A stretch of DNA of 64,000 bases from a virus (taxonomy: Duplodnaviria > Heunggongvirae > Uroviricota > Caudoviricetes), in the IMG/VR virus record IMGVR_UViG_2585427754_000004. One strand, written 5' to 3'. The position numbers and the translations under genes were made by a program. Below the pieces are notes generated by a model. The model had not been told where the DNA came from. It ran no database searches and saw nothing but the letters and a program-made list of their open reading frames with translations. Of the stretch, positions 6,076 to 24,200 are shown in pieces (the stretch's first letter is position 1; each line of letters begins with the position of its first letter).

Positions 6076-6182
6076 TCTTTTAAAAGACACCACCAGAACA
6101 AGTCCCTTCCGTTTCCACTTCCAAAAACTGCCACCAGTCGCTATCATCCGCTCATTGTGATAAGTAAGTAACTACCTACCAG

Positions 6183-10969: not shown

Positions 10970-12288
10970 AAAAGTTGATCGCACTTAAGCATAAGCTGGA
11001 CGAAATGAAAGCTATGGGAACCAATGCAAAAAAAGAGGCATTGGCCAACATGGATGACTTCGAGCAAAGCATGGTTTCATTGATGCTCAACCCTTTCATC
11101 CGTTTTGGGGTAAAGAAATACAAAGTGGCAGAGCCGCTTAGTGAGTCCGTCCCAAGTGACGAAAAAGCCATTGATATACTGAATAAGCTGGCCTCTCGCG
11201 AGCTGACGGGGAACGCAGCAATAGCTGCTGTTGAGTCTATCGTGGCGTCAATGTGCGCCGATGGGCAGGACGTGTTCCGTCGTTTCCTCTTAAAAGATCC
11301 GAAAGCTGGCGTTGGGATTAGCCTATGCAACAAGGTTTTTGAAAATCCCATTCCGAAATTTGAGGTGCAGCTGGCGTCACCGTATAAAGAAAAAGGCGAC
11401 AAATACCCCTTCAAGCCAAATCCTAAAGCCAAATGGCCGATGATTGGCAGCCTTAAGCTCGATGGTTTGCGAGTAATTTGTGAGGTTATTGTTGACGAGG
11501 AAGAGGTGAACTTCCTTTCTCGTACTGGTAATCCAATCACGTCTCTCGATCACCTAAAGCCAGCCATGCTCGAATTAGGCAAACTTTCAGGCCACAAACA
11601 CATCTTCTTCGATGGTGAAGGAACAGCCGGTTCATTTAACCAGTCCGTATCTGCATTGCGCAAAAAGAACGTGCAGGCAATTGGCGCTATTTATCATGTT
11701 TTCGACTTCTTCCTACCGGAATGGCGGGCACAGGCTAAATCCAAAGAGTATGCAAAGACAGGTATGAAGCTGAAAGAGCGCCTGGCTATGCTCGTGGCGT
11801 TGTTCAAAAACGATCGCAGTGAAGGCTACGCACAAGACATTCACCTGCATCCGTTCTATATCATCCATAGCCACGAAGACTTCATCGAACGCTTCATGAA
11901 ACGCCTGGACGATAACGAAGAAGGGGAGATGGGCAAAGATCCGAACTCTGTTTACGAGTTTAAACGTACCCGCAGCTGGTGGAAGTTAAAAGACGAAGAT
12001 TCAGAAGATGGTGAAATTATCGATTTTGAGCCGGGCGATCCGGACTCTGGTTTTGCCAACACGCTTGGAAAAATTGTTATTCGCCTTGAAAACGGTGTGA
12101 TTGTTCGTGCGAGCGGCATTAAGCATAAATATCTGGACGAGATCTGGAACAACAAAGAGAAGTACCGTGGTCGTATTGTCGAGGTTCATTGTCACGAGAA
12201 AACGCAGGATGGCAGCTTACGCCACCCACGACTGAAATGGCCGCGTTGCTTACGCGATACAGAAGATCGAATCGGAGATAAAGAATGA
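10966..12288 (+). CDS. ATP-dependent DNA ligase
   Basis: Adenylation motif I KLDGLR (KxDGxR) and C-terminal lysine-rich motif; 440 aa. Confidence 0.7.
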   Translation: MKKLIALKHKLDEMKAMGTNAKKEALANMDDFEQSMVSLMLNPFIRFGVKKYKVAEPLSESVPSDEKAIDILNKLASRELTGNAAIAAVESIVASMCADGQDVFRRFLLKDPKAGVGISLCNKVFENPIPKFEVQLASPYKEKGDKYPFKPNPKAKWPMIGSLKLDGLRVICEVIVDEEEVNFLSRTGNPITSLDHLKPAMLELGKLSGHKHIFFDGEGTAGSFNQSVSALRKKNVQAIGAIYHVFDFFLPEWRAQAKSKEYAKTGMKLKERLAMLVALFKNDRSEGYAQDIHLHPFYIIHSHEDFIERFMKRLDDNEEGEMGKDPNSVYEFKRTRSWWKLKDEDSEDGEIIDFEPGDPDSGFANTLGKIVIRLENGVIVRASGIKHKYLDEIWNNKEKYRGRIVEVHCHEKTQDGSLRHPRLKWPRCLRDTEDRIGDKE

Positions 12289-12446
12289 TGCTCGGCTGGA
12301 TGATTGCATTTTTAGCAGTTGGTTTTTCATCGGTATTGTGGTGATGTCCAGTTGCATTAATGACTACATTAAAAACGGTGTTATAGAAAGACGAGGTCGC
12401 ATTTATCGCATTGTAGAAATAACCAACACCGTGAAGGAGATTAAGG

Positions 12447-12662
12447 ATGATCGTATTAAGTAAACGGGAGAAGGAAACGCTTCATGAAATCAGTAAGTGG
12501 CCGGAGTTCCCTGAGTACTGGAAGCCTAAAACGCGAGCTAAGTTAGAGCGGTTAGGGTTGGTTGCAAACGTTTCTGAAACGAAGTGTTCGGCCAACTACC
12601 AGTTAACTGATAAAGGGAAAGTATTGCTACAGCAATTAGTAGAATCAGGAGTGTTAAAATGA
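12447..12662 (+). CDS. Hypothetical small protein
   Basis: 71-aa ORF preceded by AAGGAG. Confidence 0.25.
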   Translation: MIVLSKREKETLHEISKWPEFPEYWKPKTRAKLERLGLVANVSETKCSANYQLTDKGKVLLQQLVESGVLK

Positions 12663-12916
12663 TTCCATACATCTCATTAGCTTTTATGGGTGGCTTCCTT
12701 ATCGGCTTCGGCATCTGTCGTGATTTAATTAAGCAGGAACTTAAAACCAAAACACTGTGCATCGGAAAGCGTGTGTATCGGGTAGTTCATGAAACAAAGG
12801 TGAAAAATGAGCAATTTAACTTCTTGGGAATGGTGGTTGGCCACCTATTTCTTAGCGGCCGGAGTCGCATTCGCCTTTTACGTAGGTCAGTTAGTCGTAA
12901 AACTGTTGCTGATTAA
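12659..12916 (+). CDS. Small membrane protein
   Basis: N-terminal hydrophobic helix; start overlaps previous stop; 3' end overlaps the next ORF by about 110 nt in another frame. Confidence 0.25.
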   Translation: MIPYISLAFMGGFLIGFGICRDLIKQELKTKTLCIGKRVYRVVHETKVKNEQFNFLGMVVGHLFLSGRSRIRLLRRSVSRKTVAD

Positions 12917-13097
12917 ATTTGCTAGTCATAAACGTATCGATGATGGTCTGTGGCGTCTTGGCACCCTGGTGGAAACTCGCTACGGGCAACTTAAGGAGAA
13001 CGAAACCATTACTATCCAGGCGAAACGATTCACTGCCACCATCACAAGAACACCTAGTCGTAGAGTGGCCTTGATCAAAAAAGTCACAACCGAATAA
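12807..13097 (+). CDS. Small membrane protein
   Basis: AAGGTG ribosome-binding site; N-terminal transmembrane helix WWLATYFLAAGVAFAFYV. Confidence 0.3.
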   Translation: MSNLTSWEWWLATYFLAAGVAFAFYVGQLVVKLLLIKFASHKRIDDGLWRLGTLVETRYGQLKENETITIQAKRFTATITRTPSRRVALIKKVTTE

Positions 13098-13875
13098 AAA
13101 CATCATGATAAGTATTTACTTACTTATCTTTTATGTATAAGATGACTTTGTTTTCGTTGAGACGCGACTGTTTGAACTTAAATACAAGTGCAAACGAAGA
13201 AGTCTATCTGGCAGTAGCCTAATAAGCCAAACACCAGCGAGGTCAGTTTCCAGCCTCGTTACCGAAATGGGACACACTGAGCGAGTGTGATTGCATAACG
13301 CAGGAGGGAACATTCATGTTCCCTCCGATGAAGTAACAGAATGGGCGGTTGGTATATTTTCAACTCCATATGACTCCCGGATTCTTAGCCACTGACCGCC
13401 CATCCTGTTACGTCATTTTGTTCAATTATGTCGTTTATACTGGGTTAAAAAGCGGCGACGTAGCCCGGCTGGTATGGTTAGCCAGCACACAACGTTGAGG
13501 CCATTACATTTTTATCAATTCTAAGGTTCTATTCACAGAGATACCGGCGAGCGTTGATATGTAACATGTTGGGCAAACATTCAATCGGAGTAGTGGCCTC
13601 AACGTTGTGAAGACAGGATTGTTGTGTAGGTTTAACCACTGTTGCCATTGGTGCCTGTTTTCACAACAAATGATTCCATACATCACATTGTATAAATTAC
13701 AAAGTAGGTGCTGTCCTCAGAAACATCATCTACTTAAAGATTTTGCCTTCTACTATTGAGCGAAGTCGAAAGCGTCTGGCACTAACGAAAAGTGCAAGTA
13801 GCGGTGCGTTTCCTGGCAGAAACTAAACCGTCGCGATTGGCACTGTTGAGTAATAAATACTGGCAGTGCTGAATT

Positions 13876-13950
13876 GATGGTGTAGCTCAGCGGTAGAGCA
13901 GTTGGCTGTTAACCAACTGGTCGGTGGTTCGAATCCACCCACCATCGCCA
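13876..13950 (+). tRNA. tRNA-Asn (anticodon GTT)
   Basis: Cloverleaf folded by hand: acceptor GATGGTG/CACCATC, anticodon loop CTGTTAA, T-arm GGTGGTTCGAATCCACC, discriminator G then CCA. Confidence 0.85.
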
Positions 13951-13955
13951 ATTTA

Positions 13956-14042
13956 GGGGAGTTAGTCCGTAGGGGCAGCGGGGTAGACTGTAAATCTACT
14001 GTCATTGCGACTCGGGTGGTTCGACTCCATCACTCCCCACCA
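13956..14042 (+). tRNA. tRNA-Tyr (anticodon GTA), type II with long variable arm
   Basis: Acceptor GGGGAGT/ACTCCCC, anticodon stem-loop GTAGA-CTGTAAA-TCTAC, T-arm GGTGGTTCGACTCCAT, CCA encoded. Confidence 0.8.
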
Positions 14043-14046
14043 AATT

Positions 14047-14122
14047 GCCGGTTTAGCTCAGTTGGTAGAGCGTCTGCCTTGTAAGCAGGATGTCAGCGGT
14101 TCGATCCCGTTAACCGGCACCA
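14047..14122 (+). tRNA. tRNA-Thr (anticodon TGT)
   Basis: Acceptor GCCGGTT/AACCGGC, D-arm GCTC ... GAGC, anticodon loop CTTGTAA, T-loop TTCGATC, CCA encoded. Confidence 0.75.
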
Positions 14123-14442
14123 ACACAACAGGTAAGAGCATTGGGCGAATCGGCGATACTGACCCACAAGCCCGTAAATCGATAGAGTCAGACCAGTGCT
14201 CTTACCGTTGTGAGGAAGTGCAGCTCTTTGAAGCAACCAGAAGATAAGCATCTGGCTTCACAACACAACGATAAGATCATTACGGTTAATCGTCGTTCAT
14301 GTGCACAATGACTGGTCGAAAGGTAGTGATCTTACCGTTGTGATGAATGCACAGGCTGATGTGCCGCAACTACAGTAGTGCGCGCTTTGCGGGGCTTGCT
14401 ACAACCCTGTGTCGGAGTTCAGCACCGACCATCACAATAGCT

Positions 14443-14529
14443 GGAGAGTAGGGAGCATGGTGCTCAAGCGGTCTTGAAAACCGTCCCATTGCGCAAGCGA
14501 TGATGGTTCGATTCCATTACTCTCCGCCA
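14443..14529 (+). tRNA. tRNA-Ser (anticodon TGA), type II
   Basis: Acceptor GGAGAGT/ACTCTCC, anticodon loop CTTGAAA, long variable arm, T-loop TTCGATT, CCA encoded. D-arm is atypical. Confidence 0.7.
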
Positions 14530-14684
14530 GACACAGCGTTGAGCGGTTTGGCCTTTTAATCACCCAGATTAAGACTCCGCTAACATAAACCAGACCGCTC
14601 AACGCTGTGATAGACAATTACGGCAGACGTTCTTAACCATAGCTTGCTAACATCCTAGCAACACTTTTTTTCAGCGCAAAATTC

Positions 14685-14708
14685 AAAGGGGCTTCGGCCC
14701 CTTTTTTG
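14685..14708 (+). terminator. Rho-independent terminator after the tRNA cluster
   Basis: GGGGCTTCGGCCCC followed by TTTTTT. Confidence 0.7.
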
Positions 14709-14750
14709 CAACTGAAAGAGTCAAGTCTACGAACTTTGTAGGAAGAAATA

Positions 14751-15101
14751 ATGACCAGCAAAGATAACACACCACTAAAAGTCACCCCTGAACACATTGA
14801 ACAACTCATTCAAAGTGAACATTATTTCACTGCATATGATGCCAGCCACGGGGATAACTTCATCTCTGTTTACAATTCAAAAACAGATATCGACAAAGGT
14901 CATGAGTCGTTAAAACTCTTAACGTTCTGCGTTATGGTTCTCAAAAATGGATATACCGTAACGGGAAAATCTGCGTGCGTAAGACCAGAAATCTTCAACT
15001 TTGATGTTGGTCGCGAGTACGCTCGAAAAGATGCTATCGATCAAATCTGGCCCCTGGAAGGCTATCTCCTGAAGCAAAAGTGGCATGAGGCAAAGCAATG
15101 A
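14751..15101 (+). CDS. Hypothetical protein
   Basis: 116-aa ORF preceded by GGAAG; stop overlaps the glutaredoxin start. Confidence 0.3.
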   Translation: MTSKDNTPLKVTPEHIEQLIQSEHYFTAYDASHGDNFISVYNSKTDIDKGHESLKLLTFCVMVLKNGYTVTGKSACVRPEIFNFDVGREYARKDAIDQIWPLEGYLLKQKWHEAKQ

Positions 15102-15343
15102 CGATCACTATCTACGGACGAGATAACTGCTCATACTGCAAACGTGCGGTCGAGCTGGCGAAGCAACTAAAGGGACATGGCTACGGTGATTATGAGTACA
15201 TCGACATCACCACTGCCGATATCGACAAGGAAAAACTTAGTGAAATTGTTGGTAAACCGGTAGAGACTATCCCCCAGGTGCTGATCGATGGCCAGCCGAT
15301 TGGCGGATACACAGAACTGGCTGCATACGTCAGCACCCTCTGA
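15098..15343 (+). CDS. Glutaredoxin (T4 NrdC-like)
   Basis: Active-site CSYC near the N-terminus and C-terminal IPQVLIDGQPIGGY, matching the glutaredoxin fold. Confidence 0.7.
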   Translation: MTITIYGRDNCSYCKRAVELAKQLKGHGYGDYEYIDITTADIDKEKLSEIVGKPVETIPQVLIDGQPIGGYTELAAYVSTL

Positions 15344-15348
15344 TTTTA

Positions 15349-15371
15349 ACGGCTCACAGGAGCCGTTTTTA
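15349..15371 (+). terminator. Rho-independent terminator
   Basis: ACGGCTC-acag-GAGCCGT followed by TTTTT. Confidence 0.6.
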
Positions 15372-15553
15372 TTCCCACCAAACTCACTCCCATTTCCCTT
15401 AAAATTCAAAAAACAACGTCAAAATGATTCCATACCTACTATGTATGGAATCATTAGTAAAAATGAGTTACTTTTACTCTTGATCCTATAAGAATCTATG
15501 CCTAATATACTGTTTACTTATACAGTACATCGGCGTAACTCGGTGATTGTCAT

Positions 15554-16657
15554 ATGAAAAATAGCTTTGACAGAGCACGCGCTGCGGAGAACACCTCAAA
15601 AGAGGCGATTGAGTATCTCGAAAGAGCATCTCAAATGCAGGCCGTTATGATCTCCCAGGTTAGCAATGACATGAGATTCTCGGACGCATTCATGTTATTC
15701 ACTCGCTTATCTCTGCTGATAACCAGACGTCGGCCAGAGATCGCTGTTCATTGTATTTTGATACATGTTTTGCCGCACATTGCCGATGTAAAAGTAAGTG
15801 ATATTAATAGGTTCATGGTGAACCAACTGGTCAACCCACTAATACTGGATGGCAAAATTGTTATGGGCCGCCGCGTTTTCTCTCTGATGAAGCAGTTCCT
15901 TAGCTGGTGCGCCTTCCAGGGGATGATAGACGTGTCACCGTTAAACGATATGTCACTTAACAAAGTTGCCGGTGGCGCAAAGCCCACGCCCCGCGAGCGG
16001 AAGCTGACTGACGCAGAGGTATGGGTGTTCTGGAATATATGGGACTACTTCAATGTGTGCGCTGGTACAAAATGGGCGGCCAGACTGTGTCTTGTATCAG
16101 CAAGACGACCTGACGAAGTACTGCGGGCTAAAAAAAGTGAGTTCAATCTTAAGCGTGGGGTTTGGAATCAAGGCAAGAGGAACAAATCTGCCCGTGAGCA
16201 TTCTCTGCCTTTAAGCTCATTAATGCGCACTTGTATTGAAGAGTTGTTCGAATATGGTAAAGACAGCCAGTGGCTCGTGCCTTCGAATAAAAAAATCGGG
16301 AAAGACCTTCCTATGTCTAAAGTGGCAATAGCCCAGGCATTACGTCGTATTCTGGAACGACCAGAACTGATGGAGCTTGAGCCATTTACACCCCGAGATT
16401 TGCGCCGTACTGCGCGTAGTTACTTCCCAGCATTAGGCATAAGCCAGGAGGTATCACGTAAAATCATGAACCACAGTCTTGAGGGGATAGATCGGGTCTA
16501 CGACCGTCACGATTATATGGACGAGATGCGAGACGCCTTAGAAAGTTTCTCGACGTACATCGCATCAATCGTAGAGCAACCGGATTTAGACGAAATTGAC
16601 CACAAATTTAAGGGAGATCGTCTATCAACAGAGCTTATTCGTGTAAATTTTTCATAG
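15554..16657 (+). CDS. int: Tyrosine recombinase / integrase
   Basis: C-terminal catalytic-domain pattern with Arg (RRPDEV), His and RDLRRTARS, then HS ... VYDRHDY carrying the putative Tyr. N-terminal start uncertain. Confidence 0.7.
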   Translation: MKNSFDRARAAENTSKEAIEYLERASQMQAVMISQVSNDMRFSDAFMLFTRLSLLITRRRPEIAVHCILIHVLPHIADVKVSDINRFMVNQLVNPLILDGKIVMGRRVFSLMKQFLSWCAFQGMIDVSPLNDMSLNKVAGGAKPTPRERKLTDAEVWVFWNIWDYFNVCAGTKWAARLCLVSARRPDEVLRAKKSEFNLKRGVWNQGKRNKSAREHSLPLSSLMRTCIEELFEYGKDSQWLVPSNKKIGKDLPMSKVAIAQALRRILERPELMELEPFTPRDLRRTARSYFPALGISQEVSRKIMNHSLEGIDRVYDRHDYMDEMRDALESFSTYIASIVEQPDLDEIDHKFKGDRLSTELIRVNFS

Positions 16658-17038
16658 AGACTTTATGGCCTCAACAACCTTTTGTGATGCGCCTTTCTCT
16701 TTACCGAATCGCTCGTTATATGCAGCAAGAACCTGTTTTTCGTCCTCGTTAAGAGGAGCAGTGCCTTCTTTGTATAAAAATGCTGCGAGTTCGGGTTGGC
16801 GTTCTTCCAGCACCATCATCATAAGACGACTTGGCTCAATGCCCAGCGCCAGCGCCAACGGACGAACCTTATCGATAGGCAAAGGAATTTTGCCACTTTT
16901 AATTAAAGAAAGGTTGTTGGCATTTTTGTAACCAATAAGTCTGGCTATTTGGGCCTGACTCATAGGTGAGGATTCAATCAACCCTGCGATAAAAGCAGCG
17001 TAGCGACTTTCTATAAATTCAATCTTGTTATCAGACAT
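16652..17038 (-). CDS. HTH (XRE-family) DNA-binding regulator
   Basis: Helix-turn-helix MSQAQIARLIGYKNANNLSLIKSGK; convergent with the integrase; palindromes in its upstream region. Confidence 0.5.
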   Translation of the reverse strand: MSDNKIEFIESRYAAFIAGLIESSPMSQAQIARLIGYKNANNLSLIKSGKIPLPIDKVRPLALALGIEPSRLMMMVLEERQPELAAFLYKEGTAPLNEDEKQVLAAYNERFGKEKGASQKVVEAIKSL

Positions 17039-17289
17039 GGTTACAACCTTTGCGCGTTCAATTCTCTCTGGTAAGTGCTTACCGATATTACATCAAAGGT
17101 TAGGGTTGTAAAGCTATTATCATTTTTTTCGATAGGCACTTAAAAGACCGGTTAAAGGCCATTGCACGGAGAAAAATTAGCCCAAAATAGGTAAGAAAAT
17201 CAACTTGCATATGATATGAATGTATTCAGTATTGATACAAATTTTAGTAGTATTCCTTACCATAGTATAAGTTAGAATGGATTGATTGA

Positions 17290-17502
17290 ATGAAAACCAC
17301 TATTTCCAGCCTAATCGCTCTTGAGATCGGACACGTACAGAAATTAGCTGATGAGTGTGTAGCTGACATCCTCACCGATCTACCGAATGAGCAGATTCAG
17401 GTTGGTGTGAATGACACAACTGGATTTATATTCGAACTTAACAACAAACGCTTCACGCTTCTCAATACCGGCTCCGGGTCTTTAGCCGTCAGAATCTGTT
17501 AA
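17290..17502 (+). CDS. Hypothetical small protein
   Basis: 70-aa ORF followed by a hairpin. Confidence 0.25.
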   Translation: MKTTISSLIALEIGHVQKLADECVADILTDLPNEQIQVGVNDTTGFIFELNNKRFTLLNTGSGSLAVRIC

Positions 17503-17600
17503 CCCCTCTTCTCCCTGCGCGAATGGCTTAGTTCCCTGTTCGCGCAGTGCTACATTAAACACACTAGTAAATAATTTGTTTTCATAACAAAGGATTAGCC

Positions 17601-19709
17601 ATGTCTAAAAAACGTTCCATCAAAGAGGTTCAGGACTTCCGTGACAGTGTAAAACGAGTAGTCGCTCTCCTTTCAGGTAAAAACATCCCTGTTGCAGAAC
17701 GAGGGGACGACGCTTATGTACGCTATAACGATGATGGAGAGCCAATTCTCGTAAACATCCCATCAATCCCGGATAACGCAACACCGGCATTGATGAATGC
17801 TGTGCGCGGATTTCTCGATCATGAGGTTGCTCACATTTTGTTTACCGATATTCGTGTGTCCAACAAAATGAGAGAAAAAGGACGCGTTCCTTCCTGGTCG
17901 CTATGGAATGCCTTAGAAGACGTGTTCATCGAGCGAAAAATGGGTCAGGTCTTTAACGGAACAAGACGTAATCTGATGGCAACTCAGCGCCTTATAATCG
18001 AAAAAGTCTTTAAACCAAAGGCTTCAGAGGCTATTGCTTATTGTGGCAAAGATCAGCGCGCGCTTTTTCTAAACTTCTTTCTCTGTCCGGTTGTAAGAGC
18101 CTGGGATGGCCAAGCACCGTTCGTAGATTTCATGGATGAATATTGGCCTGTCATTGAGAAACCAATTTCATTATTAAAAGAACATGGTATCGATGTGGCC
18201 GTGCGTAACATGTCTTGCACCGAGGATTGTGTAAAGGTGGCTGCGACCATAGCTAAGATCCTCAAAGACACTGAAAGTGAAAGCAAAGGTAAGGAGTCAG
18301 CTCCGGGAAAAACTTCCGATCCTTCAGACGCTGACCAGACGGATGCCTCTGGAGAAAACAATGAAGACAACGAAGATCATGAGACACCCTCATCGTTAGA
18401 TAATCACAAATCTATTAAATCAGAGTCACATAGTAAGCACAAACATGATAATAACGACAGTGATGATTCAGATAATCCTGAATCATCAGAAACAATATTC
18501 GATGATACAGAAAATGATAAAGCGGTATCAGATTCTGATGCTTCTGATAACGCGGCGTCAGAATCATTAACCGCTGACCACGAAAAAAGAAAAACGACAG
18601 AAGACGGCTCTTCAGACATTCCAACTCCGTCAAAAATGAGTCTGGAAGAGGCTTTAGAGGAGTTGGATAGCATGGAAGATGAAGTCGGAGGCATGACAGA
18701 AGATGCGCTATCCGAAACGATTAAAAGCGAGTTAACAGAAAGCTCGAAAAGCGAATACAGGCCATACAATCGCTCATACGACTTCATCGGCTCGATTGAT
18801 CAGGCAGAAGCCCATATCAAACGGCTTATTAAAACATTCTCCGATATTGATTTAGGTGGATATCCAATCAGCCGTTATCGCATCGTTCCTGAAGGCAACC
18901 AACTCTTCGACAAATATATTGAAAAGCACCTTTCGTCAGGTGTTTCGTCGACGCTGGCAAAAGACCTGGAACGTGCAATAGCAAGCAGAAACAGAGTTCA
19001 GTTTATACCTGGCCAGCGTCGGGGGCGCATTCATGGTTCAAGTATCTACAGATTAACAATGAATGATGATCGCGTGTTTCGTAAAAAAGAAGAATCTAAA
19101 GCCGTTAACGCCTGTGTTCAACAAGTGATTGATTTATCGGGTTCAATGAGTGGCGAAACGATAAAACTAGCTCTTGCAAGTGCATATACCATCGCCGATG
19201 CACTTGATCGAATAAATGTTCCCAACATTATCACCGGCTTCACTACATTTGGCAGTCATATGGCAGCAGGAGAACTTAAGGCTATCAAATATGAGTTCTC
19301 TCGCTTTGAATCTTTAATGCTACCTATCATCAAAAATTGGAATGAAAAAGCAAATTCTCGCGAAGTTCGCTCACGTATGGGGTGCGTAGGCTACACATTC
19401 CCACTTCTTAATAACGTGGATGGTGAAAGCATAGCCAGCCTTGCATCGTTATTTTCCGGTCGCTTGGAGGACAGGAAGATCATGCTTGTTCTGAGTGATG
19501 GCGCGCCGTGGGCTGTTGGGAGAGGTTTTGACGCTCATTTGCGTTCAGTTGCGAAGCAAATTGAAACGCAGACTGACATTGATTTGATGGCAATTGGCAT
19601 CATGACTGATGCACCGGAGAGATTTTACTCAAATCATGCCCTGGTAACGAGCGTTGATAGTCTTGGTTCATCTGTAGTTACTGAACTATCTCGTATCATT
19701 TTAAAGTGA
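17601..19709 (+). CDS. von Willebrand factor A (vWA) domain protein with long acidic Ser/Asp-rich insertion (CobT-like)
   Basis: MIDAS motif DLSGSMSGET in the C-terminal half; roughly 150-aa low-complexity acidic region in the middle; conserved upstream motif. Confidence 0.55.
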   Translation: MSKKRSIKEVQDFRDSVKRVVALLSGKNIPVAERGDDAYVRYNDDGEPILVNIPSIPDNATPALMNAVRGFLDHEVAHILFTDIRVSNKMREKGRVPSWSLWNALEDVFIERKMGQVFNGTRRNLMATQRLIIEKVFKPKASEAIAYCGKDQRALFLNFFLCPVVRAWDGQAPFVDFMDEYWPVIEKPISLLKEHGIDVAVRNMSCTEDCVKVAATIAKILKDTESESKGKESAPGKTSDPSDADQTDASGENNEDNEDHETPSSLDNHKSIKSESHSKHKHDNNDSDDSDNPESSETIFDDTENDKAVSDSDASDNAASESLTADHEKRKTTEDGSSDIPTPSKMSLEEALEELDSMEDEVGGMTEDALSETIKSELTESSKSEYRPYNRSYDFIGSIDQAEAHIKRLIKTFSDIDLGGYPISRYRIVPEGNQLFDKYIEKHLSSGVSSTLAKDLERAIASRNRVQFIPGQRRGRIHGSSIYRLTMNDDRVFRKKEESKAVNACVQQVIDLSGSMSGETIKLALASAYTIADALDRINVPNIITGFTTFGSHMAAGELKAIKYEFSRFESLMLPIIKNWNEKANSREVRSRMGCVGYTFPLLNNVDGESIASLASLFSGRLEDRKIMLVLSDGAPWAVGRGFDAHLRSVAKQIETQTDIDLMAIGIMTDAPERFYSNHALVTSVDSLGSSVVTELSRIILK

Positions 19710-19804
19710 ACAAAACAGCCTTAACGATAAGTAACCACTTACGATAGATAATGATATATTTATATAAGAAGTTGAACGCTCATTAGAAAACAAAGGAAAA
19801 ACGC

Positions 19805-21040
19805 ATGACTACTACTGCACTGCAAAATGAAAAAAATCCTTCTGATTACCTTGTTTGCAAGTGGTGCGGAAAATCATTTCACTATTTTAAGTCCCATGTA
19901 GCCAATGGTAATTGCGAGGGCATTCCTGAGTCAGTAAAAGATGCCGATCCTGACACCGTACTGAAAATGTACACAACACAGTTTCCAGATGAGCCAACGC
20001 TATCGAAAAAGGCACTTGATGCAATTCAAGCTAAACGTGCCGAGCAAAAAAGCGAAATGGCCAAATCATCTGGCGTGACCAGTAGCCCAGGCTACACAGG
20101 CACAGTTGAGTACAAGACAGATCTGGTCGCAGCTCACGAACTGCTAAATGTAACGGTGAAAGAACTCGGAACAAAACGTGGGACGCCGCTCATGGTTAGC
20201 GTCAACGTCAATACGCCGTATCCAGAGTTCGTTCCAGAAGTGAAGAAGGGCTACGTATATGGCGACTTCGAACTGATCAAAGATATTTTCATGATGCTTG
20301 AACTTGGCATACCTGGCTATTTGTGGGGTCATGCAGGAACAGGCAAATCGTCATTGCCTACACAGCTATGTGCTTTGCTCAATCGTCCGTTGATCCGTGC
20401 CCAACATACAGCATCAATGGAAGAGGCACATGTTACGGGGCAAATTCTGGCGCGTGATGGCTCTACGTATTTCGAGCCTGGCTTGCTTGCGCTCGCAATG
20501 AAGCATGGCTGGGTTTACCTCGCGGATGAATACGACTTTGCGTTTCCACAAATTCTTGGCGTGTATCAGCCAGTGCTGGAAGGTGAGGCGTTGGTCATCA
20601 AAGAGGCAACTCCAGAATGGCGTCGCATTACTCCGCATGAACGGTTTGCTTTCATTGGCACTGGCAACACAAACGGTTCTGGTGATGAAACCGGCTTGTA
20701 CCAGGGTACAAACATCCAGAACGCCGCGAACTTTTCGCGTTTTGGCATCGTTTCGAATGTGAAATACATGAGCAAAGAGGCAGAGATCAACATGTTGATA
20801 AATGCCGGTATCGTGGATGAATACGCAGAAAAGATGGTTAAGTTTGCCGGTATCGTTCGCGATGGATACGAAGAACACCTTATCAGTCAGCCAATTGGCC
20901 CTCGTGAACTTTTGTTGTCGGCCAAGATTGGAATGATGCGAGGCGACTTTGTGACAGGTATTGAGCGTTCTTTCATTAACAAACTCCCTTCAGCTTCTGC
21001 ACAAGCGGCTCGTGAAGTTGTTCAAAAAATATTTGGTTAA
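19805..21040 (+). CDS. AAA+ ATPase (MoxR/CobS-like)
   Basis: Walker A GHAGTGKSS, Walker B VYLADEYD; N-terminal Cys/His cluster; directly follows the vWA gene. Confidence 0.6.
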   Translation: MTTTALQNEKNPSDYLVCKWCGKSFHYFKSHVANGNCEGIPESVKDADPDTVLKMYTTQFPDEPTLSKKALDAIQAKRAEQKSEMAKSSGVTSSPGYTGTVEYKTDLVAAHELLNVTVKELGTKRGTPLMVSVNVNTPYPEFVPEVKKGYVYGDFELIKDIFMMLELGIPGYLWGHAGTGKSSLPTQLCALLNRPLIRAQHTASMEEAHVTGQILARDGSTYFEPGLLALAMKHGWVYLADEYDFAFPQILGVYQPVLEGEALVIKEATPEWRRITPHERFAFIGTGNTNGSGDETGLYQGTNIQNAANFSRFGIVSNVKYMSKEAEINMLINAGIVDEYAEKMVKFAGIVRDGYEEHLISQPIGPRELLLSAKIGMMRGDFVTGIERSFINKLPSASAQAAREVVQKIFG

Positions 21041-21220: not shown

Positions 21221-24200
21221 ATGAAGGCACTGATGGTTCGAACTGACTTCTCACTTGGGGAGTCGGCTCTAAAAGCAGAAAACGCGGTGAAGATTGCCAG
21301 AGAAGCTGGCTACACCGCTGTAATTTCAGCAGATAGCATGAATATTGCGAGCGTTATTCCACTACAACGTGCCGCTGGTGACGACATGGCGGTTATTTGT
21401 GGTGTGAAACTAAACATTGTTGATGATCCCACATACGAACACCGGGCTAAACTTGCTAAAGAATCTATGAGATGTATGGAATCATTAGAGCGGGGACGTA
21501 ACTACTCGTTTACCGCTCTAATTAAAAATGAGCAAGGATATCGCGACATCTGCGAACTAATGACGGCGGCCAACACACGAGAACAGTTCTACTTTGTACC
21601 GCGTCTCTCGCTCGAACAGTTGGTTTCTACATATGCCAAAGGCAACATCATCCTGCTTACTTCCGACATCGGTAGCGTGTTCCAACGCAACGATTTTGCA
21701 AAAATCATAAGCACACTGATTACAGCGGGTGGAAAAGACAACTTCTATAGTGTGGTTTATCCGCACCCTACCCCATTCTACGACCAGATTAACGTCCGGG
21801 CGATGAAAGTCGCCAGCGCATTGAAAATAGAGCCAGTGGCGTTCTATCCCGCTTATTACGAATCGATCGACGATGCAGACATTAAAGACATCGCGCACAT
21901 GGTTACGAACAACATCAAAATCGACCAGCCGCATCGTCTGCGTATCCCCCACCAGCGAGATAACGCCGTCAATGGTCGCCGCCATCTCCTTGAGGCGCTT
22001 AAAGCCTTCTCCGTTCGCATGGATGTGCCTGTAACAGCTGCAATGGCCTCAACAACGCAGGATACCATTATCGATTCCTGCACATGGCGCTGGCATGAAT
22101 TGCCACCAGCACTGCCAAAGATGGCAGACGACGAGCCTGCAACGCTTATGAAACTGGCTGTTGCAGGGCTGCGTAAACGTCTTACCACAAAAGAGTTTGG
22201 CTACACACCACCTGCTTCTGAGAACAGGGTTTATGTTGAGCGGCTAAAGTACGAAATGGACACGCTGACTCGCCTGGGATTTTGTGGTTACTTCCTGATG
22301 GTACGCGATCTGATGAATCATAGTCGTGAAACTGGCATTCCCGTTGGGCCTGGTCGTGGTTCCTCTGCCGGTTCTCTGGTGGCGTGGTGCATAGGCATAA
22401 CCAACGTCGACCCAATCCGTCACGGTCTTCTGTTTGAGCGTTTCATCAACCCTGAGCGTCTCGACTTGCCGGATGCGGACTTGGACTTCAGCCAGGCACG
22501 TCGCCATGAGGTGATCGAGTATCTGAATGAACGCTACGGCGAAGATTACGTTGCGGGTATTCCGAACTTCACCTACCTGGGCGCAGCCTCTGCACTACGT
22601 GATACCGCTCGTATTTATGGTGTGGAGTCCGCAGATATGGCGGTATCAAAAGAACTGAAGAACGCTGAGGATGATAGCCTTCCATTGGAAGAACTGCGCG
22701 AACAACTGGCAAGTCTCGACAAATACGCAACAAAATATCCTGATGCATTCAATGCAGCCTGCAAGTTACAAAGCCTTATGCGTGGCTTTGGTAGACATGC
22801 GGCAGGGATGATCGTAGCAGGTGTTCCTCTGACAGAACGTACACCGGTTGAGCGCCGTGGTGACGCGCGTTGTATCGCATTTGACAAGCGTTACTGCGAG
22901 GCTATGGGCCTAATTAAGCTGGACGTGCTTGGCCTGGCAACTCTCGATTTGCTCGATAGTGCAAAACGCTACATAAAAGAGAACACAGGTGAAGATATCA
23001 ATCTTGATGCCATTTCTCTTGAAGATCGCAAGGTGCTGGATGGTTTTGCTGCTGGGTACACTCAAGGTGTTTTCCAGCTTGAATCAGGCCCAATGCGCAA
23101 GCTGCTTAAAGATTTAGGTGGTGGAATTGAGCCAATGAGCTTTAAAACGGTCGTCGCTACAACTGCGCTCTTCCGGCCGGGGCCAATTCAATCAGGCATG
23201 TTGGATGACTATGTTTCTGTCGCCAAAGGCTTTATGACGCCGGAATCATTACACCCCGTTCTTGATGAACTTACCGCGGAAACAAATGGCGTGATTCTCT
23301 ATCAGGAACAGACGATGAACGCGACTCGATTGCTTGCCGGCTTCACAATGGCTGAAGCTGACGCTGTGCGTTCCGCAATCGGTAAGAAGAACATGGAAAA
23401 AATGAAGAGCATGGGCGAGAAGTTCATCGTTCAGGCTCAAGCTGGCTGGATAGACGTTGAGCTGGAAGATGGCACTACACAGCGCATTCACCGTGCGGAA
23501 CATTTTAAATGCGAAGACGGAACTCTGAAAACTGTCGAAGAGGCACTTGAGCACGGCGCAAAACTACCTATAAACGCAGTACGCGTTACAGCGTCACATC
23601 CAGGGCTATCAGAGATGAAAGCGAAGGAGATCTGGACCGCATTTGAGAAAAACGGAGCCTATCAGTTCAATAAATCACACTCCGTTGCTTATTCTTTAAT
23701 CAGTTATCAGTCTATGTGGCTAAAGACGCACTACCCTGCTGAGTTCTTCGCAGCTGCGCTCACCATTCTGGGCGAGGATAAGCATCAGGGGCTGGTGAAG
23801 GATGCGCTGACCTATGGCATTCGCGTATTGCCACCAGACGTTAATGTGTCATCTAACCGAATTGAGATCCGCACACTCGAAGACGGCAGTCAGGCACTGT
23901 ATGCGCCATTCTCTGCTGTGAAAGGCTGTTCTGAAAATGGTTGTCAGGCAATTATGCGTGCGCGTGAGAAAGTTGGTGGCAAATTCGAGTCAGTGGCACA
24001 ATTCGATGAAGCGGTCGAGAAGCGTGCATGTAACAGTCGTGTACGCGAGTCGCTTCATAAAGTAGGGGCTTTTGCGTCAATTGAGCCAGGCAGTCTGCCA
24101 GCAACTGATCCTGAACGACTGCGCGACCAGGCTGAGCTGATGGGCAATCTCATCATTGACGCTGTTAAAGCATCACGTCCGTTCGAAATGAATCCTAAGC

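What the first reader, a model, noticed from the sequence alone, without database searches (positions are those of the whole stretch)
15554..17111. Integrase and convergent HTH regulator with operator-like palindromes, far from the element end
A tyrosine recombinase lies 1 kb from the tRNA cluster. Its convergent neighbour is an XRE-type HTH protein whose upstream region holds GGTAAGTGCTTACC and the inverted repeat TTACAACCTTT ... AAAGGTTAGGGTTGTAA. In a phage-plasmid this recombinase may resolve dimers (like Cre of P1) rather than integrate, and the HTH protein may be the lysogeny repressor.
Basis: inference. Interest (0 to 1): 0.45.

Follow-up and report, generated by a model that had tools for sequence, protein, structure and literature searches.

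The report
Phage-plasmid recombinase with loxP-like site
The genes are real but already annotated; what is new is that this plasmid-only recombinase has its own perfectly symmetrical, loxP-like target site just upstream and a DNA-damage (LexA) switch on its promoter, so it most likely untangles plasmid copies as Cre does in phage P1, rather than inserting the phage into the chromosome.

Summary
The window is an SSU5/pSLy3-type phage-plasmid, 98% identical to E. coli phage Cyrano. It has a 367-aa tyrosine recombinase (15554-16657, +) and a converging, 6-bp-overlapping 128-aa XRE-type HTH gene (16652-17038, -), and the quoted motifs are present.

A perfect 13-7-13 palindrome (15423-15455) lies 98 bp upstream of int, and a LexA box (15508-15527) overlaps the int promoter. 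The palindrome sits beside the recombinase gene in 57/58 species genomes and 79/80 viral contigs. Its arms co-vary with the recombinase clade while the spacer varies, and there is one copy per replicon.

The element and the site occur only on plasmids: 252 E. coli genomes, 0 chromosomal places. The protein comes from P4-type integrases but lacks their arm-binding domain. The best reading is a Cre/loxP-like multimer-resolution system that is SOS-responsive and marks the backbone/cargo boundary.

The HTH protein is plausibly the lysogeny repressor. It is expressed in lysogens, and GGTAAGTGCTTACC lies at its transcription start. That palindrome belongs to a dispersed 20-bp family with 13 copies in the window. 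Isolated recombinase half-sites, one kept inside dnaE, remain unexplained. No function has been tested experimentally.

The parts
15423..15455 (.). Candidate recombination core site: perfect palindrome AATGATTCCATAC-CTACTAT-GTATGGAATCATT, with 13-bp arms and a 7-bp spacer
   Evidence: locate it. It is conserved with co-varying arms and a variable spacer upstream of every family member examined. There is one copy per replicon.
15406..15415 (.). Conserved A-rich box (TTCAAAAAAC) 8 bp left of the left arm. It may be an accessory part of the site. Homology between relatives ends just left of it.
15480..15508 (+). Inferred int promoter: -35 TTGATC (15480-15485), 17-nt spacer, -10 TAATAT (15503-15508)
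   Evidence: Invariant columns in alignment A2. It falls below the threshold of the consensus scan, so the promoter is inferred.
15508..15527 (.). LexA (SOS) box TACTGTTTACTTATACAGTA, matching the consensus at 17/20 positions and overlapping the -10 hexamer and the likely transcription start of int
   Evidence: Conserved in Klebsiella, pMT1, pHCM2 and K. quasipneumoniae plasmids and in 76/80 IMG/VR loci. int RNA rises about 25-fold in an SOS-inducing condition.
15554..16657 (+). Tyrosine recombinase, 367 aa. It has P4-type central and catalytic domains, no arm-binding domain, and a helical N-terminus.
16160..16171 (-). Degenerate recombinase half-site inside int (TTGATTCCAAAC, 2 mismatches here). 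The 11-mer TGATTCCATAC is exact in 7 of the 9 lineages scanned; the window and L072 lack it.
16652..17038 (-). XRE-type HTH regulator, 128 aa, converging on int with a 6-bp overlap. It is the candidate lysogeny repressor and homologue of CYRAN_45.
17067..17086 (.). Operator-like palindrome with core GGTAAG-TG-CTTACC (17070-17083). It lies just downstream of the -10 hexamer of the HTH promoter and is one member of a dispersed 20-bp family.
17085..17112 (-). Promoter-like site for the HTH gene (-35 TTTACA, 16 nt, -10 TAATAT).
   Evidence: Both hexamers are invariant in alignment A3.
17129..17147 (.). Second, degenerate copy of the operator (TCGATAGGCACTTAA) in inverted orientation
   Evidence: (I3)
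17290..17502 (+). 70-aa ORF (PHROG 2627, unknown function). It is the first gene of the rightward CobT/VWA-AAA-DnaE block that diverges from the HTH gene.
   Evidence: Its Cyrano homologue is induced about 85-fold in macrophages.
12658..12670 (+). Isolated recombinase half-site 1 (AATGATTCCATAC+ATC), at the stop/start junction of two small genes
13669..13681 (+). Isolated half-site 2, about 205 bp upstream of the tRNA cluster
21474..21486 (-). Isolated half-site 5, inside the dnaE-like gene. It is conserved at the DNA level beyond what the coding sequence requires.
   Evidence: One search shows no rearrangement at this site.

Best explanation
The interval holds two separate functional units of an SSU5/pSLy3-type phage-plasmid.

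**Unit 1: a self-contained site-specific recombination module.**
- The enzyme is a catalytically intact tyrosine recombinase. It descends from P4-type integrases but has lost their arm-binding domain.
- Its cognate simple site is the 13-7-13 palindrome at 15423-15455.
- Two recombinase monomers are expected to bind the two arms and exchange strands across the 7-bp spacer, as Cre does at loxP.
- Each replicon carries exactly one site and the element lives only as a plasmid. The most likely job is therefore to convert plasmid multimers back to monomers so that the low-copy prophage segregates faithfully. It may also circularise incoming DNA.
- The same hot site marks the sharp boundary between the conserved backbone and the variable cargo. 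That cargo slot holds the caf1 capsule operon in Y. pestis pMT1.
- Transcription of int starts at a promoter overlapped by a LexA box, so expression is low but detectable in lysogens and rises when the SOS response is on.

**Unit 2: the converging HTH gene.** It most likely encodes the prophage's maintenance repressor. It is transcribed in lysogens from a promoter whose start region carries the GGTAAG-TG-CTTACC palindrome, suggesting autoregulation. It faces the silent rightward CobT-AAA-DnaE block.

**Shown here:** gene and site anatomy, conservation, co-variation of arms with recombinase clade, plasmid-only distribution, and domain loss. Expression changes are taken from published data.

**Inferred:** that the palindrome is the recombination substrate, that the reaction is multimer resolution, that LexA binds the box, and that the HTH protein binds the palindrome and maintains lysogeny.
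For: **The site and the enzyme belong together.**
- A scan of 185,579 species genomes for TGAYTCCAKAC-N7-GTMTGGARTCA found 58 loci, one per genome.
- 57 of the 58 have a homologue of this recombinase (45-86% identity) starting 47-255 bp away and always reading away from the site.
- 79 of 80 IMG/VR recombinase loci have the intact palindrome 97-101 bp upstream of the ATG.
- Both arms change together. They read ATTCCATAC where the recombinase is at least 57% identical and ACTCCAGAC where it is 52% or less. 57 of 58 loci are symmetric, although the search pattern allowed mixed arms.
- The 7-bp spacer takes more than 10 forms.

**The protein looks like an active, simple recombinase.**
- R185, K211, R284 and Y316 are invariant across 30 sequences down to 43% identity, H307 is nearly invariant (at least 90%), and R281 is an invariant Arg at the usual His position.
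- About 110 family members lack PF13356. The next relatives, at 34% identity or less, are P4-type integrases that have it.
- The NCBIfam PRK09692 match begins at model position 137 of 413.
- The AF2 model (pLDDT 82) superposes best on the lambda Int core-binding plus catalytic domains.

**The lifestyle is plasmid-only.**
- The int-HTH region hits 254 places in 252 of 5,426 complete E. coli genomes, with 0 on chromosomes.
- A 47-mer containing the palindrome, searched at E up to 10, hits the same 252 genomes with 0 chromosomal places and one site each.
- 981 plasmids carry a homologue, including non-phage Pantoea, Rahnella and Erwinia megaplasmids that have the module without the HTH gene.
- It is the only site-specific recombinase annotated in Cyrano, and no dif/cer-like Xer site was found.
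- Cyrano is present at about 5.5 copies per cell (PMC9928086).

**The site marks the backbone/cargo boundary.**
- The 300 nt to the right of the site fall into 8 clusters. The 300 nt to the left fall into 22.
- 214 of 695 locus pairs that are at least 97% identical on the right are under 60% identical on the left.
- The cargo at this position includes caf1R-M-A-caf1, an ars operon, a class 1 integron and a type I restriction-modification system.

**SOS control.**
- The box matches the LexA consensus at 17/20 positions and overlaps the conserved -10 hexamer.
- The whole Cyrano genome has only two full LexA boxes. The other precedes a UmuD-like gene.
- In strand-specific RNA-seq, int rises from log2 5.6 to 10.3 and the UmuD-like gene from 7.2 to 12.2 in macrophages, an SOS-inducing niche. 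Meanwhile dnaE and the terminase large subunit stay near log2 4 (terminase small subunit about 5).
- int reads 49.5 against a background of 9.8 in LB, so some expression exists in lysogens.

**HTH protein.**
- It is expressed at 10 times background in lysogens and was labelled the master repressor by the Cyrano authors.
- Its promoter hexamers and the palindrome are conserved.
- Its recognition-helix region is nearly invariant while the rest of the protein diverges to 56-60% identity.
- The family is confined to contigs of about 100-115 kb.
- Related palindromes occur at 13 window sites against 0.31 expected, and 16 of 17 copies in Cyrano are intergenic.
Against: - No recombination product was observed or can be computed. 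The assignment of the palindrome as substrate rests on anatomy and co-variation. It could in principle be only an autoregulatory operator.
- LexA repression is odd for a housekeeping resolvase. A resolvase induced during lytic growth could work against concatemer packaging.
- The homology break between relatives lies at the outer edge of the left arm and the A-box, not demonstrably inside the spacer. Cargo turnover therefore cannot be tied to the enzyme.
- Isolated half-sites kept at three or four fixed positions have no role in a simple resolution model.
- The nearest sequence relatives are true integrases.
- Three contigs of 0.2-1 Mb carrying a family member were not inspected. Their neighbours within 10 kb were reported as the same as in plasmids.
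- For the HTH protein, Pfam scores are below threshold and fold matches are weak, with E at least 0.007. It has no RecA-cleavable domain, although Cyrano is induced 39-fold by ciprofloxacin.
- The palindrome family also lies in late-gene regions and directly after stop codons. It could therefore be a promoter, terminator or processing element bound by something else.
Confidence: 0.6

Rival explanations
1. The recombinase is a true integrase. The palindrome is an attP used to insert the phage-plasmid into a chromosomal attB, for example a tRNA gene, as in its P4-type relatives.
For: Its closest sequence relatives outside the family are P4-type integrases. It lies 1 kb from a tRNA cluster. The 7-bp spacer flanked by symmetric arms is the geometry of tRNA-loop att sites (my own knowledge of tRNA-targeting integrases, not tested here).
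Against: There are no chromosomal places for the region or for the palindrome in 5,426 complete E. coli genomes. The palindrome is intact next to int in 57/58 species genomes and 79/80 viral contigs and is never seen split. The arm-binding domain that integrative relatives use is missing. The arms are 11-13 bp perfect repeats, longer than any tRNA stem, and the spacers vary between close relatives.
Confidence: 0.06
2. In the phage-plasmids the module has been recruited into the SOS-triggered lysis-lysogeny switch. LexA cleavage turns on Pint. Then either transcription running through int into the converging, overlapping HTH gene, or recombinase binding at the isolated half-sites (dnaE, upstream of the tRNAs, the small-gene junction), helps start the lytic programme. 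Dimer resolution is secondary.
For: Cyrano is induced 39-fold by ciprofloxacin, yet the putative repressor has no cleavage domain. Pint carries one of only two full LexA boxes in the genome and is the only one next to the immunity region. The int/HTH convergent overlap is kept in all phage-plasmid lineages, including Xenorhabdus and Photorhabdus. The LexA box and the half-sites occur only in the phage-plasmid branch, not in megaplasmids. Half-site 5 is under DNA-level selection.
Against: HTH RNA does not fall when int RNA rises: log2 6.6 in LB, 10.3 and 9.9 in macrophages. In that condition int is high but no virions are made. A candidate terminator hairpin inside the HTH gene is not conserved. 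No mechanism for monomer binding at half-sites is known to me.
Confidence: 0.2
3. The module is an integron-like cargo-capture platform. It would be an SOS-controlled recombinase inserting circular DNA at the palindrome and so building the variable region that abuts it. The same-orientation half-sites 1 and 2 would be hybrid sites left by earlier insertions.
For: The topology cargo - site - LexA-controlled promoter - int mirrors attI/Pint/intI. The variable region starts at the site. Half-sites 1 and 2 lie on the cargo side in the orientation such insertions would leave.
Against: The spacers of the half-sites (ATCTCAT, ATCACAT) differ from the palindrome's (CTACTAT). Half-site 5 lies inside an essential gene on the backbone side. 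Cargo items carry their own mobility elements such as IS elements, a class 1 integron and TA modules. There is no attC-like element. No cargo junction could be placed inside the spacer.
Confidence: 0.08
4. The HTH protein is only a local regulator, of int, of its own gene or of the 70-aa ORF operon, or a directionality factor. Lysogeny is maintained by another protein. The dispersed 20-bp palindromes are promoter or terminator elements read by a different factor.
For: The copy at the HTH promoter matches the family only in its 12-bp core. Family members sit after stop codons and in late-gene regions, often giving a TATNAT -10-like hexamer. Other regulators exist, such as CYRAN_114 and CYRAN_123. 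Fold matches are as close to C-proteins and HigA antitoxins as to phage repressors.
Against: Apart from the HicB antitoxin and a putative antitoxin, it is the only gene with a DNA-binding or regulator annotation transcribed well above background in the lysogen. It faces the silent replication block. Departures between the two arms of family copies are not compensatory, which favours a dimeric DNA-binding protein.
Confidence: 0.3

Closest known systems
Cre/loxP of phage-plasmid P1
   Same: Both are tyrosine recombinases without an arm-binding domain, encoded by a plasmid prophage. Each acts, or here is presumed to act, on a single simple site with 13-bp inverted arms around a short asymmetric spacer near its own gene. 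The role is plasmid multimer resolution and possibly cyclisation. The site behaves as a recombination and reassortment landmark.
   Different: There is no detectable sequence relationship: phmmer against PDB finds nothing at E up to 1, and Foldseek gives Cre at E 0.014-0.1 against lambda Int at 6e-7. The spacer is 7 bp, not 8. The promoter is LexA-controlled. Extra isolated half-sites are present. The ancestry lies in P4-type integrases. Activity is untested.
P4-type (CP4-57 / PRK09692) tRNA-targeting integrases
   Same: They are the closest sequence relatives, at 26-34% identity. They share the Phage_int_M central domain and the catalytic domain, including the DLRRT motif.
   Different: The N-terminal arm-binding domain PF13356 is absent. 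The NCBIfam score is 33.9 against a cut-off of 434. Arg replaces His in the HxxR motif in all members. The site is palindromic rather than derived from a tRNA. No integrated copy has been found.
Plasmid multimer-resolution recombinases of large low-copy plasmids (ResD/rfsF of F, Rsd/crs of Salmonella virulence plasmids, XerCD at cer/psi) - named from my own knowledge
   Same: There is one cis site per replicon next to, or serving, a tyrosine recombinase on large low-copy plasmids. The module is also present on non-phage megaplasmids.
   Different: These proteins were not compared directly here. No accessory-sequence architecture like cer/psi is evident. SOS control has not, to my knowledge, been described for them.
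Integron integrase IntI with attI and LexA-regulated Pint
   Same: A LexA box overlaps the recombinase promoter. The recombination site lies between the recombinase gene and a highly variable gene array.
   Different: There are no attC sites or cassettes. Foldseek places IntI at E about 1e-3, behind lambda Int. The cargo consists of IS elements, operons and TA modules, and sometimes contains a genuine class 1 integron of its own.
P1 C1 repressor with dispersed operators (for the HTH protein and the palindrome family) - named from my own knowledge
   Same: A phage-plasmid has many copies of one operator-like sequence scattered through intergenic regions, including one at the regulator's own promoter.
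   Different: P1 operators are asymmetric 17-mers, whereas these are 20-bp palindromes. No homology to C1 was shown. Binding of the HTH protein to them is untested.

Membership tests
Tyrosine recombinase superfamily | Catalytic residues Arg-Lys-His-Arg-His/Trp-Tyr in the C-terminal domain | tested here: met
   R185, K211, R284 and Y316 are invariant and H307 nearly invariant (at least 90%) in 30 sequences. The first His of HxxR is an invariant Arg (R281). Pfam PF00589 scores 40.6 bits, above the 27.1 cut-off.
Tyrosine recombinase superfamily | Two-domain fold, core-binding plus catalytic | tested here: met
   AF2 model with pLDDT 82.3. Foldseek finds lambda Int 1z1b at E 5.8e-7, followed by Tn1549 Int, XerA/D/H, IntI and Cre.
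P4-type integrases (NCBIfam PRK09692) | N-terminal arm-type DNA-binding domain (PF13356/DUF4102) | tested here: not met
   No PF13356 hit. It is absent from about 110 family members and present in the next relatives P0114-P0120. The model match starts at position 137 of 413. The predicted N-terminus is helical.
P4-type integrases (NCBIfam PRK09692) | Score above the family cut-off | tested here: not met
   33.9 bits against a cut-off of 434.
P4-type integrases (NCBIfam PRK09692) | Integration at a chromosomal (tRNA) attB, with the element found integrated | tested here: not met
   0 chromosomal places in 5,426 E. coli genomes for the region or for the site. The palindrome is intact in 57/58 and 79/80 loci.
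Cre family | Sequence homology to Cre | tested here: not met
   phmmer against all PDB chains, which include Cre, gives no hit at E up to 1. Structural similarity is only at the superfamily level.
Simple-site plasmid multimer-resolution system (works like Cre/loxP) | A single symmetric core site per replicon, adjacent to the recombinase gene | tested here: met
   One palindrome in the whole 108-kb Cyrano genome. One per genome in 252 E. coli genomes and in 58 species. It lies 47-255 bp from int.
Simple-site plasmid multimer-resolution system (works like Cre/loxP) | The site's arms are specified by the recombinase (co-variation) | tested here: met
   There are two arm types that follow the recombinase clade, not the host family. 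57/58 loci are symmetric.
Simple-site plasmid multimer-resolution system (works like Cre/loxP) | Recombinase-dependent resolution of dimers, and plasmid instability without it | not testable with these tools
   This needs in vivo or in vitro recombination and stability assays.
LexA (SOS) regulon member | CTGT-N8-ACAG box overlapping the promoter | tested here: met
   17/20 match to the consensus at 15508-15527, overlapping the conserved -10 hexamer. Present in 76/80 loci.
LexA (SOS) regulon member | LexA binding and DNA-damage induction | tested here: inconclusive
   The evidence is only correlative. int RNA rises about 25-fold in macrophages, in parallel with the other LexA-box gene. No lexA mutant or binding data are available.
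Integron | attC-flanked cassettes and the IntI-type enzyme | tested here: not met
   The cargo consists of operons, IS elements and TA modules. The half-site spacers do not match the palindrome. IntI is a weaker fold match than lambda Int. No dedicated attC search was run.
XRE-family HTH regulator | Helix-turn-helix domain of the Cro/C1 type | tested here: inconclusive
   Pfam HTH_19 scores 18.9 bits, below the 30.2 cut-off. PHROG 8 gives E 6.6e-12. The PDB profile hit is 2kpj, an HTH domain, at E 0.088. Foldseek finds C.BclI, HigA and the 434 repressor at E 0.007-0.05.
Prophage maintenance (lysogeny) repressor | Expressed in the lysogen while neighbouring lytic genes are silent | tested here: met
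   Published strand-specific RNA-seq shows the HTH gene at 10 times background, with CobT, AAA and DnaE at background.
Prophage maintenance (lysogeny) repressor | Binds operators at lytic promoters; loss causes induction; confers immunity | not testable with these tools
   Only the conserved palindrome at its own promoter and the dispersed family are seen.

The most novel reading that the evidence does not exclude
In SSU5-type phage-plasmids the LexA-controlled recombinase is the entry point of the DNA-damage signal into the lytic switch. On SOS induction the enzyme, or transcription from its promoter into the overlapping repressor gene, would act at the palindrome and at the conserved isolated half-sites. 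One half-site lies inside the phage's own dnaE gene and one lies upstream of the tRNA genes. The action could be as a roadblock, an architectural factor or a site-specific nickase that primes the T4-like recombination-dependent replication these phages encode. A site-specific recombinase would then double as an induction factor. This would also explain how a prophage with an uncleavable repressor is induced by ciprofloxacin.
Probability: 0.12. Interest if true: 0.75.

Novelty: new variant of a known kind. Interest (0 to 1): 0.45.

Why it matters
**Scale.** The module sits on roughly a thousand sequenced enterobacterial plasmids. These include Yersinia pestis pMT1/pFra, Salmonella Typhi pHCM2, Klebsiella and E. 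coli phage-plasmids that carry resistance genes, and the large Pantoea, Rahnella and Erwinia plasmids. In records and papers it is simply called 'integrase'.

**If the reading is right:**
- These elements have a Cre/loxP-like maintenance system that evolved independently from an integrase by loss of the arm-binding domain.
- The 33-bp site is the fixed edge of the main cargo slot. That slot holds the F1 capsule operon in plague plasmids and integrons or ars operons elsewhere. This gives a concrete landmark for studying how these plasmids swap cargo.
- Naturally diversified arm and spacer variants would offer a set of potentially orthogonal recombinase/site pairs for genome engineering.
- The LexA box and the half-sites make the unknown induction pathway of SSU5-type phage-plasmids experimentally approachable.

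**If it is wrong,** the finding is an ordinary, already annotated integrase-regulator pair.

Tried and rejected
- **Long-range inverted repeat as operator pair.** TTACAACCTTT / AAAGGTTAGGGTTGTAA was rejected. The arms are the ribosome-binding site and the -35 region, they do not co-vary, and the match is no rarer than chance.
- **Half-sites as an active inversion or deletion system (shufflon-like).** 794 of 815 plasmids are contiguous across the dnaE half-site. Half-site spacers match only in the E. coli lineage, sites 1 and 5, and not in Klebsiella, pMT1 or pHCM2.
- **Terminator after int inside the HTH gene (16878-16894).** The hairpin is not conserved in other lineages.
- **Antisense knock-down of the repressor by Pint.** Published RNA levels do not support it.
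- **Xer-type resolution site.** The best dif/cer-like match is only 17/22.
- **Sequence match of the recombinase to any solved structure.** None at E up to 1.
- **Rfam scan of 11000-22000.** It found only the four tRNAs and one sub-threshold tmRNA-like hit.
- **Dispersed palindromes as plain intrinsic terminators.** T-rich tails are inconsistent and arm deviations are not compensatory. This is not settled.
- **Literature.** No held paper contains the site sequences in a relevant context or discusses the function of the SSU5-type integrase. My guessed PMC ids for the original pMT1 sequence paper and for Gilcrease & Casjens 2018 were not held. Prior description in those papers therefore cannot be excluded.
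- **Large contigs.** Contigs of 0.2-1 Mb carrying a family member could not be displayed, because they were collapsed with identical neighbourhoods.


Full report
**What the window is.** The region 14500-18000 is 98% identical to Escherichia phage Cyrano (pLF82) and 99% identical to many E. coli, E. albertii and Shigella plasmids of about 110 kb. More distant matches include Klebsiella, Enterobacter, Yersinia pestis, Salmonella and Citrobacter plasmids, 755 plasmids in all. It is therefore an SSU5-supergroup phage-plasmid of the pSLy3/E. coli type (PMC7969092).

The local gene order is as follows:
- DNA ligase
- small ORFs
- four tRNAs (13876-14529)
- Gp49-family protein
- GrxA
- the recombinase
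- the HTH gene on the opposite strand
- a 70-aa ORF
- CobT/VWA
- AAA (MoxR-like)
- DnaE-like polymerase

**Checking the observation.**
- The recombinase passes the Pfam Phage_integrase threshold.
- The HTH call is sub-threshold in Pfam. It is supported by PHROG 8, by source annotations and by a helical AF2 model with weak matches to C-proteins, HigA, the 434 repressor and Stl.
- GGTAAGTGCTTACC (17070-17083), TTACAACCTTT (17041-17051) and AAAGGTTAGGGTTGTAA (17096-17112) are all present.

An alignment of seven lineages separates what is real from what is not.
- The 6-2-6 palindrome and the two hexamers of a minus-strand promoter are conserved while the surroundings diverge. The hexamers are -35 TTTACA at 17112-17107 and -10 TAATAT at 17090-17085.
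- The palindrome lies 2 nt beyond the -10 hexamer, so it covers the likely transcription start.
- The long inverted repeat is the Shine-Dalgarno region on one side and the -35 region on the other. It loses its complementarity in pHCM2, Kluyvera and Buttiauxella.

A perfect palindrome, AATGATTCCATAC-CTACTAT-GTATGGAATCATT, occupies 15423-15455. It lies between the GrxA terminator and int, 98 bp upstream of the int start codon.

I tested whether it belongs to the recombinase in three independent collections.
- **Selected plasmids.**
  - Klebsiella pJN2-26, pMT1, pHCM2 and a K. quasipneumoniae plasmid (recombinase 59% identical) all have a palindrome of the same geometry at the same place.
  - Pantoea and Rahnella megaplasmids (recombinase 47-48% identical) have it too.
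  - Their spacers differ: TTGGTAG, CTATTAA, CTATAGA, TTATTAG, TTAATAG.
  - The most distant members have different arms (TGACTCCAGAC).
- **Species genomes.**
  - A pattern search of one genome per species, 185,579 species in all, allowed either arm type independently in each arm. It returned 58 loci, one per genome.
  - In 57 of them tblastn finds the recombinase homologue 47-255 bp away, always transcribed away from the site. The 58th lies at the edge of the fetched locus.
  - Only one locus has unlike arms.
  - Arm type follows the recombinase clade rather than the host family. Chimaeribacter and Rahnella are both Yersiniaceae but differ.
- **Viral contigs.** Starting from the protein in IMG/VR, 79 of 80 loci have the intact palindrome 97-101 bp upstream. 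Seven spacer variants occur.

Long palindromes are not rare in this genome. I found 17 with arms of 11 bp, 6-8 bp spacers and at most one mismatch, mostly GC-rich terminators. The argument therefore rests on conservation and co-variation, not on the palindrome alone. Symmetric arms that track the enzyme, around a 7-bp variable spacer, are the anatomy of a simple tyrosine-recombinase core site.

**What kind of recombinase.**
- A search of 5.8 billion proteins gives a sharply bounded family of about 110 clusters. They are at least 44% identical, mostly 340-380 aa, and have the central (PF22022) and catalytic (PF00589) domains.
- After a gap come ordinary P4-type integrases at 26-34% identity, which additionally carry the arm-binding domain PF13356.
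- The NCBIfam P4-like model matches only from position 137 onward and far below its cut-off.
- R185, K211, R284 and Y316 are invariant and H307 is nearly invariant (at least 90%). The His of the HxxR motif is an invariant Arg. Catalysis is therefore under selection.
- The AF2 model (pLDDT 82) has a helical N-terminus. It superposes best on the lambda Int core-binding plus catalytic domains. Cre is much further away.
- No solved structure is detectable by sequence.

The enzyme is thus a derivative of the integrase lineage that has lost the domain integrases use to build directional intasomes. This fits action on a simple site.

**Integration or plasmid maintenance.**
- In 5,426 complete E. coli genomes the int-HTH region occurs in 252 genomes, at 254 places, all on plasmids.
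- A 47-mer containing the palindrome, searched with short words at E up to 10, finds the same 252 genomes with one site each and nothing on a chromosome.
- The protein is on 981 plasmids in PLSDB. On Pantoea, Rahnella and Erwinia megaplasmids it occurs with its site but without any phage genes or the HTH neighbour.
- It is the only site-specific recombinase annotated in Cyrano. I found no dif/cer-like Xer site.
- Cyrano is kept at about 5.5 copies per cell.

One site per low-copy replicon, next to its enzyme and never seen split, is what a multimer-resolution system looks like. I could not find this function discussed for SSU5-type elements in the held literature. My guessed PMC ids for the original pMT1 paper and for Gilcrease & Casjens 2018 were not held.

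**The site is the edge of the cargo slot.**
- Immediately left of the palindrome the sequence differs even between near-identical relatives. The window has nothing there, while Cyrano has the very highly expressed moron CYRAN_43.
- Other lineages carry a YafO toxin pair, IS elements, a sulfatase, an ars operon, a class 1 integron or a type I restriction-modification system.
- In Y. pestis pMT1 the slot holds the whole caf1R-caf1M-caf1A-caf1 capsule operon.
- In 80 IMG/VR loci the 300 nt on the int side form 8 clusters and the 300 nt on the other side form 22. Of 695 pairs at least 97% identical on the int side, 214 are unrelated (under 60% identical) on the other side.
- A short A-rich box (15406-15415) between cargo and left arm is conserved across the whole family. 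The visible homology break is therefore at the outer edge of the site. I cannot show that exchanges happen inside the spacer.
- Different spacers occur within one backbone cluster, including CTATTAA and its reverse complement.

**SOS control.**
- Between the palindrome and the int start codon lies a conserved weak promoter (TTGATC, 17 nt, TAATAT). TACTGTTTACTTATACAGTA overlaps its -10 hexamer. This is a 17/20 match to the LexA consensus with both CTGT and ACAG intact.
- The box is kept, with 11 sequence variants of the interior, in 76 of 80 IMG/VR loci. It is also present in pMT1, pHCM2, Klebsiella and K. quasipneumoniae plasmids. It is absent from the megaplasmid branch.
- The whole Cyrano genome has only one other full box, in front of a UmuD-like gene whose window homologue is at 62537-62926.
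- Published strand-specific RNA-seq of LF82 (PMC9928086 S1 Table) fits this.
  - int is at 5 times the local background in stationary LB.
  - It rises about 25-fold at 6 h inside macrophages, a niche the authors describe as SOS-inducing.
  - The UmuD-like gene rises about 32-fold.
  - dnaE, helicase and the terminase large subunit stay near log2 4-5.

This evidence is correlative. No LexA binding or mutant data exist.

**Isolated half-sites (unexplained).**
- The 12-mer ATGATTCCATAC occurs exactly five times in the window and in the whole 108-kb Cyrano genome. No copies with one mismatch exist.
- Two copies are the palindrome arms. The other three are single copies at 12658 (+), 13669 (+) and 21474 (-), each followed by ATC.
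- Across the eight SSU5-group lineages examined, the dnaE copy is exact in all eight. Copies 1 and 2 are present wherever that region was fetched and has not been replaced by cargo.
- A further copy lies inside int in most lineages (exact 11-mer in 7 of 9) but is degenerate in the window.
- The copy inside dnaE is under DNA-level constraint. Third codon positions vary at 49 of 61 sites outside it and at 0 of 4 inside. The longest invariant run in 195 nt is TGTATGGAATCATT.
- The half-sites are not sites of visible rearrangement. 794 of 815 plasmids are contiguous across the dnaE copy.
- They are absent from the megaplasmid loci.
- Their role is unknown. Together with the LexA box they are specific to the phage-plasmid branch. 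This is why I keep open a reading in which the recombinase also takes part in the SOS-triggered switch.

**The HTH protein and the 'operator'.**
- The Cyrano authors list the homologue (CYRAN_45) as the putative master repressor. It is expressed at 10 times background in the lysogen, and Cyrano is induced 39-fold by ciprofloxacin.
- The protein family is confined to phage-plasmid-sized contigs. Its recognition-helix region is nearly invariant although overall identity falls to 56-60%. This matches the near-invariant palindrome.
- It has no peptidase domain, so induction cannot be by RecA-mediated self-cleavage.
- The palindrome is not unique to this promoter. It is a core-only member of a 20-bp family, ATAGGTAAGT/ACTTACCTAT.
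  - There are 13 copies in the window against 0.31 expected.
  - Cyrano has 17, of which 16 are intergenic.
  - Klebsiella pJN2-26 has 19, two of them perfect.
- Copies lie before early genes (nrdA, thyX, dam, sbcD) and in the late region (terminase/portal, after the capsid gene, before the holin). They are often right after a stop codon.
- Differences between the two arms are not compensatory. This favours a dimeric DNA-binding protein over a mere RNA hairpin.
- Promoter, terminator or processing roles, and a different binding protein, are not excluded.
- HTH RNA does not drop when int RNA rises. This argues against simple antisense silencing by read-through from Pint, despite the conserved convergent overlap.

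**Verdict.**
- The 'Cre-like, not integrative' interpretation is supported on new grounds but is not a family membership.
- The repressor idea is plausible and already published as an annotation.
- One of the two quoted operators is real and the other is not.

The substantive result is a conserved recombinase/site module with SOS control, shared by about a thousand enterobacterial plasmids including pMT1 and pHCM2. It is a new variant of a known kind. Its activity, its link to cargo turnover, the half-sites and the palindrome family all need experiments.

Noticed in passing
window 1410, 6160, 13108, 17067, 27136, 30657, 32610, 36410, 41094, 45804, 50641, 52854, 57824 (each 20 bp): A dispersed 20-bp palindrome family with consensus ATAGGTAAGT/ACTTACCTAT. 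The window has 13 copies against 0.31 expected, Cyrano has 17 (16 intergenic) and Klebsiella pJN2-26 has 19. Copies lie mostly just after stop codons, before both early and late genes. They may be dispersed repressor operators, phage-specific promoter elements or processing sites.
   Followed up: partly
window 12658-12670 (+), 13669-13681 (+), 21474-21486 (-), 16160-16171 (-, degenerate): Isolated copies of the recombinase half-site ATGATTCCATAC followed by ATC, kept at the same positions in lineages about 75-80% identical in DNA. The copy inside dnaE is conserved beyond its coding needs. No rearrangements occur at it.
   Followed up: partly
L006 (Y. pestis pMT1) 1115-6243, next to the palindrome at 6872: The F1 capsule operon caf1R-caf1M-caf1A-caf1 occupies the cargo slot that abuts the recombination site. 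It replaces the tRNA/Gp49/GrxA segment and half-site 2.
   Followed up: partly
window 62501-62520, upstream of ORF 62537-62926: The second full LexA box (TACTGTATGTGTATACAGTA, 18/20) lies in front of a UmuD/HumD-like S24 peptidase gene, homologue of CYRAN_98. It is induced about 32-fold in macrophages in published data.
   Followed up: partly
window 35347-35366: An imperfect LexA-like box (TACAGTGGATATATACAGCT, 15/20) in the intergenic region upstream of the RepA gene (between RepA and the ASCH-domain gene).
   Followed up: no
window 13100-13670: About 570 bp of conserved non-coding DNA between the small ORFs and half-site 2, upstream of the tRNA cluster. A sub-threshold tmRNA-like Rfam hit lies at 13171-13273 (17 bits, E 0.046). 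The number of tRNA genes differs between close relatives: 4 here, 3 in Cyrano, and 1 annotated in the fetched parts of Klebsiella pJN2-26.
   Followed up: no
IMG/VR loci L080-L159: Within one near-identical backbone cluster the 7-bp spacer of the palindrome can differ completely (CTATTAA, TTGTAAG) or be reverse-complemented (TTAATAG). The spacer therefore turns over faster than its surroundings.
   Followed up: partly
window 17290-17502: The 70-aa ORF (PHROG 2627, no known domain) is the first gene facing the HTH gene. Its Cyrano homologue is the most strongly induced Cyrano gene in macrophages, about 85-fold, while the genes after it stay low. It is a candidate Cro-like or anti-repressor function.
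   Followed up: no
window 18270-18700 within ORF 17601-19709: The CobT/VWA protein carries a long acidic Asp/Ser/Glu-rich low-complexity insert between its CobT and VWA parts. The gene's length varies between lineages: 702 aa here and 743-789 aa in the other lineages examined.
   Followed up: no
L004 5065-7404 (Cyrano RecA) versus window 29542-30615: Cyrano's annotated RecA gene is 2.3 kb whereas the window ORF at the corresponding position (29542-30615; not checked for RecA homology) is 1.07 kb. In Enterobacter L071 the dnaE region is annotated as several ORFs, including one annotated as a uracil-DNA glycosylase. This suggests insertions, perhaps inteins or homing elements, in replication genes of some lineages.
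   Followed up: no
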